NCBI RefSeq assembly: GCF_006345805.1
Contig: NC_043016.1
Span: forward strand, 12,090,001-12,154,000
Source of the DNA: Octopus sinensis
Lineage: Eukaryota
Reading direction: 5' to 3'
DNA: 64,000 bases
Position 1 is the stretch's first letter. Each line of letters begins with the position of its first letter. The notes beneath the pieces are model-generated. The model was not told where the DNA came from. It was given only the letters and a program-made list of their open reading frames with translations, and ran no database searches. Made by a program: the position numbers and the translations under genes. Shown here one piece after another: positions 1 through 61,380 of the stretch.

Positions 1-652
1 AGATATACTGGGATTGATTTGTTCAACTAAAACCCTTCAAGGTGGTGCCCCAGCATGGCCACAGTCCATGACTGAAACAAGTAAAAGATAAAAGATATAC
101 TGGGATTGATTTGTTCAACTAAAACCTTCAAGGTGGTGCCCCAGCATGGCCACAGTCCAATGACTGAAACAAGTAAAAGATAAAAGATATACTGGGATTG
201 ATTTGTTCAACTAAAACCCTTCAAGGTGGTGCCCCAGCATGGCCACAGTCCACTGACTGAAACAAGTAAAAGATAAAAGATATACTGGGATTGATTTGTT
301 CAACTAAAACCCTTCAAGGTGGTGCCCCAGCATGGCCATAGTCCAATGACTGAAACAAGTAAAAGATAAAAGAATACTGGGATTGATTTGTTCAACTAAA
401 ACCCTTCAAGGTGGTGCCCCAGCATGGCCATAGTCCAATGACTGAAACAAGTAAAAGATAAAAGATATACTGGGATTGATTTGTTCAACTAAAACCCTTC
501 AAGGTGGTGCCCCAGCATGGCCACATTCCAATGACTGAAACAAGTAAAAGATAAAAGATATACTGGGATTGATTTGTTCAACTAAAACCCTTCAAGGTGG
601 TGCCCCAGCATGGCCACAGCCCAATGACTGAAACAAGTAAAAGATAAAAGAT
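1..652 (+). repeat. Tandem array of at least 7 units of 92-93 bp derived from a SINE 3' tail; truncated by the window edge
   Basis: Units start at 1, 93, 185, 278, 371, 463 and 556 and are near-identical. Confidence 0.95.
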
Positions 653-1144
653 ACACACACACACAACAGGATTCTCTCTGTTTGTCTAGCAGATCCACTG
701 ACAAGGTTTTGGCTGGCCTGAGGCTATAGCAGAAGACACTTGCCAAAGGTACTATGCAGTGGGACTGAACCTAGAACCATGTGATTAAAAAAACTAGCTT
801 CTTAACACATAGCCATGTCTGTCCCTATAAACACGATTTGTTTTTTAATAGCCAAAAAAATTATAAGTTATATTAACAATTCATCCAAAGAACTGAATAT
901 ATTTTTCAAAAACCCCAACAAAGAAAAACTGAAATGGAAAGGAGATATATTATCTATAATGGTTCTTCAATGATCTTATAAATGGTAAATTTCAAGACAT
1001 GTCTTTCTAAATACTTAAAAGTTTTTATGAATGTAAAACATAAACATCACTTAGTGAAATGCTTATTTCTAGAAATGCTATTTATTAATGGATTTTCCCC
1101 CTCTTTTTCTTTTAAATGGTTGATCCTTTATTTATTTATTTAAT

Positions 1145-19801: not shown

Positions 19802-20472
19802 CAGTGTTTCTCAACTTGGGGTCCCCCGGAACCCTAGTGTTCTGCAAGAAAGAGTGAGATAAGCTAATATTAATTTCATGATCATAATACTACGAAACAT
19901 GCACAACATATTATTGGTTATTGTAATATAGACATCATCCTATCTAACCTATTATGTTATAAAAAAATATAACAACCGTTGGGGATATATTTAGTGATGT
20001 CTGTTATTTATGGGCACTCTCTCTCTCTCTCTATGTATGTATTTATGTATGTATATATGTATATGCACACACAACACCACACATATATATTATATATGTA
20101 CATATATATTATTTTATAGAAGGAGCTTCTACAGGACTAGAATTGTTTCATTCAAATGAAATCATCAGGAAGCTTCCTGATGATTTCATTTGAATGAAAC
20201 AGTTCTAGTCCTGTAGAAGCTCCTTCTATAAAATAAATAATTTACCTGCTAGTATTGAGTACCTTATTTACTGTGGTTAACCCCGACTCAACCCGGGACC
20301 TACATATGTACATATATATATATATATTTGTATGTATGTATGATATTTACCATGTGAATTACGATGAAAAAATATGAGAAAGATATGACATGTAATTTTT
20401 TGTGCAGGGGTTCCTTGGGAATGTTATTTTAATTTAAGGGTTACGCAAGGGTAAAAAGGTTGAGGAACACTG
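19802..20472. mobile_element. hAT MITE interrupted by microsatellite and the hammerhead palindrome
   Basis: TIRs CAGTGTTTCTCAAC / GTTGAGGAACACTG with a degenerate 8-bp TSD GGTTAGGG/GGTTAGAA. Confidence 0.7.
20171..20221 (+). ncRNA. Type I hammerhead ribozyme motif, mirrored on the minus strand at about 20124-20174
   Basis: Stem I AGCTTC/GAAGCT, core CTGATGA, weak stem II, GAAA, stem III ACAG..CTGT, GTA cleavage triplet. Confidence 0.7.
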
Positions 20473-29086: not shown

Positions 29087-29254
29087 TAATTAGGGTTTAG
29101 CAAAACATTTGCTTCACCACATACCGAAATTTAGAAATAGCAGCCAAAACTAGCTATTTCTCTATATTTCTTATGGTAGAGAAATAGCTAGTTTTGGCTG
29201 CTATATCTAAATTTTGGTATGTGGCGAAGCAAATTTTTTGCTGAACCCTAATTA
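29087..29254. repeat. Hairpin element (78-bp arms) with a unique tail at 29586-29700; second copy at 32123-32310
   Basis: Arms 29087-29164 and 29177-29254. The tail resumes after a SINE insertion with an AATTA duplication. Confidence 0.75.
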
Positions 29255-40883: not shown

Positions 40884-41157
40884 GAAGGTTTGGAGATGAT
40901 GTACAGGTATTATATATTAGAAGAAATGAGGTACTCAGAAAATCGGATGGTTTTATATTTTTACAGATATTTATTTGTATATTACATTTTTTATACATCA
41001 TATAACTTAGATCATGTATTAGCGCTTTCTCCCACTAGAATGGGAGAAAGTGCTAATACATGATCTAAGTTATATGATGTATAAGAAATGTAATATACAA
41101 ATAAATATCTGTAAAAATATAAAACCATCCGATTTTCTGAGTACCTCATTTCTTCTA

Positions 41158-41164
<7 letters not shown>
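40880..41164. repeat. Near-perfect palindrome (124-bp arms, 6-nt loop) inserted in (TA)n
   Basis: 40911-41034 is the reverse complement of 41041-41164 with 2 mismatches. Confidence 0.9.
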
Positions 41165-50726: not shown

Positions 50727-51922
50727 CACACACACATACATACATATATACACACATACATATATACATACATACATATATACACACATATATATATACA
50801 CACACATATATACACACATATATATATACACACATATATATACACACATATATATATACACACATACATATATACATACATATATATATACATACATACA
50901 TACATATACACATACATACATATATATACATATACATACATACATACACATACATACATATACATATATATATACATATACATGCATATACATATATATA
51001 TATATACATATATATATATACATATATACATACATACATACACATCCTATGTGAATGCATTTTAATGAAAAGTTCTACATGGAACCAGAAAATAACTTTA
51101 CTTTTATGGAGAAAAAAAACACGAATGGTTGTGTGGTAAGAAGCTTGCTTCTTAATCACATAGTTCCAGGTTCAGTCTCACATCATGGCACCTTGGGCAA
51201 GTGTCTTCTACAATAGCTTTGGGTCAACCAAAGCCTTGTGAGTGAATCTGGCAGATGGAAGTTTAAAGAAGCCACCACTGTGTGTGTGTGTGTGTGTCCC
51301 TCTCCTCCCACCACTCGACAACCAGCATTGTCCCTGTAACTTAGCGGTTTGGCAAAAGCAACTGACAGAATAAGTATCAGGCTTAACAAAAGAGTAAGTA
51401 CTGAGGTTAATTCATTCAACTAAAAACCCTTCAAGGTGGTGCCCCAGCATGGCCACAGTCCAATGACTGAAACAAGTAAGAGATAAAAGATATACTGGGA
51501 TTGATTTGTTCAACTAAAACCCTTCAAGGTGGTGCCCCAGTATGGGCATAGTTTGACGAGTGAAACAAGTAAGAGATAAAAGATAACAAAGGCGGAATAT
51601 GATGTAGTGGAATCTGCCATTTATATTTAATTGCAATAAATTATCTTGCACACAGCATGGACTTTTCAAAAGAGTAAAAAGTACCAATCTATTCACGAGA
51701 AGATACAATCTGTTGTTGTATGCCATATGCAATATTTGCAAAACAAAACATCACATAAACATTTTAATACATTAGAACATGTGGAATATCAAAAATATCC
51801 AATAAGTTGGTAAATGTATCAAGCATTCCCTTTCTTTTTAAATAAAATTTAACATAAAAAAAAAAAAAATGAATATTCTGAAGCACTATCTTTACAGTAG
51901 TACAACTAAAACTTTATATGCA

Positions 51923-57501: not shown

Positions 57502-57592
57502 TGCCTGCAGGGGGGACTTGAACCCACAACCTTCAGATGACTTAAGATTCAAACAGAAAAGTCTAATGCTCTACCAACTGAGCTATGCAGGC
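57502..57592 (-). tRNA. tRNA-Lys(TTT)-like gene or pseudogene with a ~17-nt insertion at the canonical intron position
   Basis: Acceptor stem GCCTGCA/TGCAGGC, D arm GCTC-AGTTGGTA-GAGC, anticodon stem TTAGA/TCTGA with CT-TTT, T loop TTCAAGT, TTTT terminator at 57492-57489. Defects: C at position 37, one T-stem mismatch, one extra C. Confidence 0.7.
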
Positions 57593-60904: not shown

Positions 60905-61380
60905 TGTTCTATATTCCAGAAATGAGGTATTCTGTACATCATTTACATTGGATAGATATGTGTCCTCATCTTGTTTGTTGTTATCACAATGTTTCGGCTG
61001 GTTTATTCTCCAGCCTTCATCAGGCGTCCTGGTGGAATTTTGAACCCAACCCTGGGTTCTCATTCCTAAGGTTTTTTTTTTTGCTGATGTTATTTATTCA
61101 AGGCACTGCCTGGAATTGAACTTGGAATCTTGGGGTTAGTAGTCCAGTGTAATGGTTAAGAGCATGGGCTACTAACTCCAAGATTCCAAGTTCAATTCCA
61201 GGTAGTGCCTTGAATAAATAGTAATAATTATATCAGCAAAAAAATACCTTAGGAATGAGAACACAGGGTTGGGTTTAAAATTCTCCCAGGACACCTGATG
61301 AAGGCTGGAGAGTAAACCAGCTGAAACATTGTTGTGTTAACAACAAACAAGATGAGGACACATATCTGTCCAATGTATAT
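60905..61380. mobile_element. Head-to-head fold-back of a tRNA-headed, hammerhead-containing element
   Basis: Inverted arms 60944-61146 and 61165-61377. A/B-box-like head at 61146-61210. CTGATGA-AGGCTGG..CCAGC(C/T)-GAAA at 61295 (+) and 61023 (-). Confidence 0.65.

What the first reader, a model, noticed from the sequence alone, without database searches (positions are those of the whole stretch)
20109..20305. Spacer-less 128-bp palindrome placing a hammerhead on each strand
Seen: 20109-20172 is the reverse complement of 20173-20236 with one mismatch. The centre AAGCTT overlaps the 5' strand of hammerhead stem I. The element continues ~65 nt on the right only and sits in a (TA)-rich tract inside a hAT MITE. 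Stem III is quasi-palindromic around CTAG. Inference: a young insertion formed by snap-back at GAAGCTTC during reverse transcription. A transcript from either strand could switch between a perfect hairpin and a ribozyme fold. The weak stem II (no G-C closing pair) may impair activity.
Basis: partly seen in the sequence, partly recalled or inferred. Interest (0 to 1): 0.72.

Follow-up and report, generated by a model that had tools for sequence, protein, structure and literature searches.

The report
Penelope stub folded at RNA start
The mirror-image sequence is one of hundreds of near-identical stubs left by a Penelope-type jumping gene, a known layout; it likely forms when two short DNA copies run off the capped start of the element's RNA and are joined head to head, which would be a new, testable clue to how these elements copy themselves.

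Summary
The palindrome is in the sequence: 64+64 bp, one mismatch. It is a 5'-truncated insertion of a Hydra-clade Penelope-like retroelement (PLE): a tailed end (hammerhead plus ~65-nt tail) joined head-to-head to a tail-less copy, with a 16-bp target duplication, inside an older MITE. The same 28-nt junction occurs 240 times in the genome, and a full-length pLTR-ORF-pLTR relative exists. This layout is published (PMC3846280, PMC8557442), and the scan noted it before in this and other genomes. The ribozyme-switch idea is not supported: the hairpin (-102 kcal/mol) outweighs the hammerhead fold (-6.7). What I did not find in print: 56 of 124 arm ends stop within four bases, also where no palindrome forms; these ends mostly carry one non-native G; a TATAAA sits about 30 nt upstream in longer copies. 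This likely marks the capped transcription start, so the stubs would be two run-off cDNAs joined at AAGCTT. Simple snap-back fails for 14 of 46 pairs. Raw reads, cleavage and the RNA start are untested.

The parts
20109..20172 (-). Inverted, tail-less arm (element positions about -3 to +64; 0 = window 20173)
   Evidence: Reverse complement of 20173-20236, one mismatch; tail-less ends near +64 to +73 recur in the family
20170..20305 (+). Tailed arm: pLTR end of a Hydra-clade PLE, from the inferred RNA start to the tail end
   Evidence: 93% to the upstream pLTR of full-length relative L089; 98% to 39 other copies
20170..20175 (.). AAGCTT junction: native self-complementary 6-mer at the inferred capped transcription start (-3 to -1)
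   Evidence: Native copies read AAG|CTTCC; 240 exact junctions; end hotspot and extra G; the start itself is inferred
20171..20221 (+). Type I hammerhead motif, family-majority sequence; predicted cut after 20215
   Evidence: same layout as the Hydra-clade table; cleavage untested
20124..20174 (-). Mirror hammerhead; the mismatch at 20143 breaks the closing pair of stem III
20237..20305 (+). One-sided tail (~65 nt) ending in a small AC-loop stem-loop; three 1-nt gaps against the family
   Evidence: fold z -1.25, not significant
20094..20109 (+). Left copy of a 16-bp target-site duplication (TA-rich, with a four-base non-TA core)
   Evidence: Longest exact repeat across both boundaries; only 2 copies in the window, present in 6 of 185 other loci
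20304..20319 (+). Right copy of the 16-bp target-site duplication
19802..20472 (.). Older MITE that received the insertion in its central microsatellite; hAT label from TIR and 8-bp duplication only (recalled criteria)
   Evidence: TIR 14/16, duplication 6/8; of 14 other copies, 10 aligned on both halves and none holds the hammerhead

Best explanation
This is a stub of a Hydra-clade Penelope-like retrotransposon, likely made when two short cDNAs ran off the capped 5' end of the element's RNA and were joined head to head. Shown: family, layout, target duplication, two kinds of 3' end, the end hotspot, the extra G, the upstream TATAAA. Inferred steps: (1) a TATA promoter in the pLTR starts the RNA at the first bases of hammerhead stem I (-3 to -1); (2) the GIY-YIG endonuclease nicks both strands of a TA tract about 16 bp apart; (3) each nick primes reverse transcription on uncut RNA, one at the tail end (about +135) and one at about +65; (4) both cDNAs reach the cap and gain one C; (5) both ends finish in the self-complementary AAGCTT(C), anneal and are filled in, giving a spacer-less palindrome with a one-sided tail. 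This copy has no promoter or ORF and is predicted to be inert; in read-through RNA both ribozymes are predicted to be locked in the hairpin.
For: Full-length relative L089: pLTR with hammerhead and tail, ORF with RWR, DKT, YRDD, CxCX5C linker and GIY-YIG, 3' UTR, second pLTR. 7381 exact matches to an 18-mer of the element. Tailed and tail-less ends both common. 56 of 124 arm 5' ends at -3..0 in 71 loci, many joined to genomic DNA or filler where AAGCTT pairing cannot help. Extra G: 22 of 28 ends at -2 joined to filler or genomic DNA (15 of 19 after leaving out arms found only through the C/G-selected search, hand count); 66 of the 100 listed (of 284) matches of a pattern that left this base free (hand count; 13 T, 13 A, 8 G in the cDNA reading, the A's mostly native read-through). 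An untemplated G is cited as a possible mark of cap copying in L1 (PMC9341517, passages). TATAAA-to-position-0 spacer is 25 nt in 104 of 116 arms over at least 14 sequence variants. Copies that start at -1 or 0 and run on into the ORF leader exist (L188, L200, L201, L222). Tail-less arm longer in 14 of 46 pairs, shorter in 15; L136 has non-overlapping arms. A PLE protein nicks both strands and starts at two internal sites bounding the tail, on uncut RNA (PMC11167929, parts 1-2 of 4).
Against: No RNA 5'-end data; contig data cannot show a start. At -1 ends G is not dominant: 35 G, 50 T, 15 C of 100 listed (hand count); 11 of 23 in filler/genomic joins. The extra C could be templated by the cDNA folding on its own mirror of stem I, or added without a cap. 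Subfamilies are roughly 85-95% alike, so constant TATA spacing is modest evidence. D. virilis Penelope has a TATA-less internal promoter with an intron ending at stem I (PMC2377424 passages; PMC4209133 parts 1-2), so a splice site is an alternative source of an RNA end. The sample required one arm to hold positions 0-27, which hides ends further 3'. The script missed the partner arm in about seven loci, and six 'equal' pairs simply ran past the reference. In this perfect copy the extra G is hidden by the partner arm.
Confidence: 0.6

Rival explanations
1. Same element, but one cDNA folds back on itself at AAGCTT (snap-back or self-priming) and copies itself up to the AT-rich stretch before the tail.
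For: It gives the same sequence for a perfect junction; 15 such junctions in 14 of 71 loci. Filler between arms is often copied from nearby element sequence. Arkhipova et al. read PLE junction palindromes as self-priming (PMC3846280, Discussion).
Against: In 14 of 46 pairs (13 if duplicated L062/L063 count once) the tail-less arm holds sequence that the tailed arm lacks, up to about 2 kb. The hotspot also holds for single arms joined to genomic DNA (L125, L130, L143, L163, L002).
Confidence: 0.15
2. Twin priming as in the best explanation, but the hotspot is a reverse-transcriptase stall or a processed RNA end (mirror stem I hairpin in the cDNA, or a 3' splice site AG|CUUCC), not a capped start.
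For: -2 is exactly the outer end of stem I, and mirror pairing would template a C. AG precedes position 0 in all main subfamilies. The Drosophila intron ends at stem I. Five of 30 loci, and L015, join through the stem I repeat.
Against: Mirror templating predicts CC, CCT, CCTT extensions; 13 of 22 extra-G ends have a single G and none reads AAGG. G also appears at -1 and -3 ends, where the mirror does not supply it. No fixed upstream exon is joined at position 0 in any locus seen, and no splice joint appeared in four contig sets (weak).
Confidence: 0.2
3. A functional two-strand RNA switch between hairpin and ribozyme.
For: Both cores are intact; catalytic residues are conserved in 190 of 207 arms.
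Against: Hairpin -102 against -6.7 kcal/mol; the complement always precedes the ribozyme in transcription; the promoter is absent; conservation is explained by descent from active elements.
Confidence: 0.03
4. Assembly fold-back artefact.
For: Raw reads not checked; three 1-nt gaps in the tail hint at local base errors.
Against: 240 identical junctions on many contigs, a target duplication, a one-sided tail, no mirrored unique flank.
Confidence: 0.02

Closest known systems
Endonuclease-positive PLE insertion unit with an inverted 5'-truncated pLTR and one-sided tail (PMC3846280 passages and Discussion; PMC8557442 passages, Fig. 2 legend)
   Same: Head-to-head arms, palindrome at the junction, tail on one side, target duplication, hammerhead in the pLTR.
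   Different: Tail about 65-70 nt against the 30-40 reported; both arms are cut to the hammerhead itself; the junction falls on one site hundreds of times; published reading is self-priming on an antisense template.
Hydra clade of PLEs, including Hydra-1_Obim (PMC8557442, passages; supplement File S1/S2 part 2 and search hits)
   Same: RWK-like and DKT motifs, CxCX5C linker, CxxC and CxH around E and N, TA-repeat targets, hammerhead with U.U-flanked stem II and ACAG/CUGU stem III.
   Different: Hammerhead sequence differs from Hydra-1_Obim; stem II only 3 bp; 3' UTR of about 3 kb rich in microsatellites, so the element exceeds the clade's usual under-3-kb size. Protein likeness was judged by eye from the supplement, not computed.
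Anole Poseidon element PAc in vitro (PMC11167929, parts 1-2 of 4)
   Same: Two internal start sites bounding the tail; AT-rich targets; uncut RNA as template.
   Different: There the ORF starts inside the hammerhead and priming is reported without homology; here the ATG lies about 50 nt past the tail and both ends fall on AU-rich bases that match the TA target.
L1 twin priming and cap-derived G; LTR minus-strand strong-stop DNA (twin priming and strong-stop recalled; cap G from PMC9341517 passages)
   Same: Two primers on one target site; extra G at full-length 5' ends; a short cDNA that ends at the RNA start and then jumps.
   Different: The arms here duplicate the same sequence; no poly(A), no tRNA primer, no integrase.

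Membership tests
Penelope-like element (EN+) | Linked ORF with RT and C-terminal GIY-YIG endonuclease | tested here: met
   L088, L089 and others: LDIED, YRDD, LVY...YIG, in line with the same pLTR. Read from motifs; Pfam and PDB gave no RT or GIY-YIG hit.
Penelope-like element (EN+) | pLTR-ORF-pLTR partial tandem with hammerhead in the pLTR | tested here: met
   L089; 52 exact tail-to-ORF junctions
Penelope-like element (EN+) | Inverted 5'-truncated copy and optional tail | tested here: met
Hydra clade | RWK and DKT motifs; CxCX5C linker; CxxC and CxH flanking E and N; no CCHH | tested here: met
   RWR, DKT, CNCPDKTTC, CDLC, CMH against the definition; CCHH absence judged by eye
Hydra clade | Insertion into (TA)n | tested here: met
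Hydra clade | RT phylogeny groups with Hydra references | not tested
   Reference proteins were seen only as supplement text; no tree built
Type I hammerhead ribozyme | CUGANGA, GAAA and UH core with three stems | tested here: met
   loop II varies in four forms while the UUC/GAA stem stays in 200 of 207 arms (related copies, not independent)
Type I hammerhead ribozyme | Rfam covariance-model score | tested here: not met
Type I hammerhead ribozyme | Self-cleavage | not testable with these tools
   Only 76 arms have a non-native base before the cut site; 14 of 30 inspected are true joins, 5 of them explained by the stem I repeat; no neighbouring-site control
Non-LTR retrozyme | Tandem head-to-tail hammerhead monomers without a coding parent | tested here: not met
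   This copy is head-to-head and has a coding parent; definition from 10.64898/2026.07.22.740005 part 1. Two small tandem arrays exist elsewhere.
hAT MITE (host element) | Short TIRs and 8-bp target duplication | tested here: inconclusive
   TIR 14/16, duplication 6/8; no transposase partner sought

The most novel reading that the evidence does not exclude
These stubs are stranded 'strong-stop' cDNAs. The protein starts on the pLTR at the 5' end of its RNA, runs off the cap after about 67 or 140 nt, and must jump to the matching repeat at the 3' end to copy the rest, much like the strand transfer of LTR elements. Failed jumps give the palindromes; stray jumps give chimeras such as L188, L222, L200, L195, L191 and L019, where a -2/-1-ended piece is preceded by sequence from inside the ORF. 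This would explain tail, inverted arm, partial tandem and promoter renewal in one cycle.
Probability: 0.3. Interest if true: 0.75.

Novelty: new member of a known kind. Interest (0 to 1): 0.42.

Why it matters
The locus itself is an ordinary, probably inert transposon stub. The family matters because how PLEs form their inverted and tandem ends is stated as open (PMC8557442 passages; PMC3846280 Discussion). Thousands of young copies give base-level junction statistics that favour two primers on sense RNA and point to a capped start at the edge of the hammerhead. That is directly testable by 5' RACE or CAGE and in the existing in vitro PLE system.

Tried and rejected
Raw-read check of this locus: not obtained; the runs listed are contigs only and none holds half of the words; no RNA holder listed. 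Contigs of four guessed-RNA runs laid on family copy L025 covered it but showed no splice joint and cannot show a start or level. Rfam found no hammerhead; Pfam and PDB did not recognise the ORF. First two junction scripts were faulty (one search used palindromic references; one search had one reference in the wrong orientation); counts come. One of 72 loci from the first 100 matches was not fetched. Tail and hammerhead folds are no better than shuffles (z -0.57 to -1.25). The GIY-YIG ORF beside L048/L067 belongs to another family. Searches for prior reports: twin priming, 2 unrelated listings; 0; strong-stop, 0; 0; the library lacks most subscription journals, and supplements of PMC11167929 and PMC3846280 were not read. 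PMC7229834 and other listed papers were seen as listings only.

Full report
Observation. The arms 20109-20172 and 20173-20236 are exact reverse complements except 20143/20202, with no spacer. Each strand carries a type I hammerhead core. On the + strand: stem I 20171-76/20216-21, CUGAUGA 20177-83, a 3-bp stem II flanked by U.U, GAAA 20196-99, stem III 20199-202/20211-14, predicted cut after 20215. The mismatch breaks the closing pair of stem III in the minus-strand copy. Rfam does not score the motif, but its layout matches the Hydra-clade table of PMC8557442 File S2. A 16-bp direct repeat flanks the insertion (20094-20109, 20304-20319); it occurs twice in the window and in 6 of 185 other loci. 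The host is a MITE at 19802-20472 whose other copies lack the hammerhead (10 of 10 that aligned on both halves, of 14 examined). Below, position 0 is window 20173.

The family. A search with the right arm returned 40 scored copies, 39 others at 98% identity. An 18-mer of the element occurs 7381 times, one hammerhead 28-mer variant 542 times, and the exact 28-nt junction 240 times with a zero control. Copies end either after the tail or near +65, in TA repeats. Following long copies upstream led through about 2-3 kb of microsatellite-rich UTR to a GIY-YIG C-terminus on the same strand, then to L089, a pLTR-ORF-pLTR element. The ORF has RWR, DKT, YRDD, a CxCX5C linker and CxxC/CxH around E and N (the last two from L088, as L089 is frameshifted there), the Hydra-clade signature (PMC8557442). 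Its hammerhead differs from that of Hydra-1_Obim, so it is another family. Earlier scan notes call this genome an octopus (e1-9574549); I did not test that.

Known layout. An inverted 5'-truncated copy, a one-sided tail and palindromes at the junction are described for PLEs (PMC8557442 passages; PMC3846280 passages and Discussion). The scan noted this layout before in this and other genomes. The thing itself is therefore a new member of a known kind.

How the arms end. I took 71 of the 72 loci behind the first 100 matches. Of 124 arm 5' ends, 56 lie at -3..0; 15 junctions in 14 loci are the perfect form. The sample needs one arm to hold 0-27, which hides more 3' ends, but about 20 ends spread over -4 to -160 show the contrast. 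The hotspot holds where AAGCTT pairing cannot help: single arms joined to genomic DNA (L125, L130, L143, L163, L002) and pairs with filler. Among 46 pairs found by the script, the tail-less arm reaches further in 14, the tailed arm in 15, and 17 are equal (six of these only ran past the reference; about seven further pairs were missed). A snap-back copy cannot hold sequence that its template lacks, so those 14 need two independent cDNAs. In L062/L063 the tail-less arm is about 2 kb longer, and in L136 the two arms cover +65..137 and -3..65 without overlap. This fits the anole PLE protein, which nicks both strands and starts at two internal sites bounding the tail on uncut RNA (PMC11167929).

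Why there. Arms ending at -2 are mostly preceded by a G that the native sequence lacks: 22 of 28 joins to filler or genomic DNA, 15 of 19 without the arms selected, and 66 of 100 listed matches of a pattern that left the base free (both hand counts). At -3, 3 of 3; at -1 the signal is weak (11 of 23; 35 of 100). An untemplated 5' G is cited as a possible product of copying the mRNA cap (PMC9341517). Longer copies have TATAAA 25 nt before position 0 in 104 of 116 arms, which puts -3..-1 at the usual distance from a TATA box (established knowledge). Some copies start at -1 or 0 and continue into the ORF leader. I infer a capped start at the first bases of stem I. In this subfamily the native bases are AAG|CTTCC, so two run-off cDNAs end in a self-complementary 6-mer, or 8-mer with the cap-derived base, and anneal. 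The main rival is a stall with a C templated by the cDNA's mirror of stem I; it predicts longer CC/CCT runs, which are a minority, although such joins exist. A splice site at the same place is not excluded.

Ribozyme. In the isolated arm the catalytic fold is -6.7 kcal/mol with probability 0.004, because a 6-bp hairpin takes up the GAAA. Loop II varies while the 3-bp stem stays, and the common variants weaken the rival hairpin, a hint of selection on the catalytic fold among related copies. Metazoan PLE hammerheads cleave poorly alone and may need a dimer or protein (PMC4209133; PMC11167929). The full palindrome folds at -102 kcal/mol, and in head-to-head orientation the complement is always made first, so a switch is not supported. 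Ends at the cut site are rare: 76 arms with a non-native base there, 14 of 30 inspected being true joins; I had no neighbouring-site control.

Verdict. Real, young relative to the MITE, and ordinary as a locus. The junction statistics add a mechanism that I did not find in searches: run-off at a capped start, possibly a strong-stop intermediate that normally jumps to the 3' pLTR (chimeras). Raw reads, RNA start and cleavage remain untested. Interest 0.42.

Noticed in passing
window 60950-61370: A second, unrelated hammerhead-like family as an inverted pair (cores at 61023 on - and 61295 on +, 5-bp stem II), likely another PLE stub.
   Followed up: no
window 40911-41164: Palindrome with 124-bp arms and a 6-nt spacer, bounded by TA repeats; likely another inverted retroelement end; no hammerhead core matched.
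   Followed up: no
window 29090-29250: Imperfect inverted repeat with a 39-bp core and 10-nt spacer.
   Followed up: no
window 57502-57592 (-): tRNA gene with a probable ~20-nt intron, 52.6 bits.
   Followed up: no
L218 (G000:C16:42874500-42878500) and L210-L214: Small tandem arrays (about 250 and 420 bp units) of the family's TATA-hammerhead-tail-ORF start, arranged as two opposed arms; resemble a retrozyme in the making.
   Followed up: partly
L061:2011-6462: A different PLE family with 910-bp inverted repeats nested in the 3' UTR of this family.
   Followed up: no
L153, L145, L281: Junctions with repeated template switches at stem II and at the CAG/CTG flanks of AAGCTT.
   Followed up: partly
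window 1-653 and 51415-51585: 93-bp tandem repeat of a common interspersed element end.
   Followed up: no
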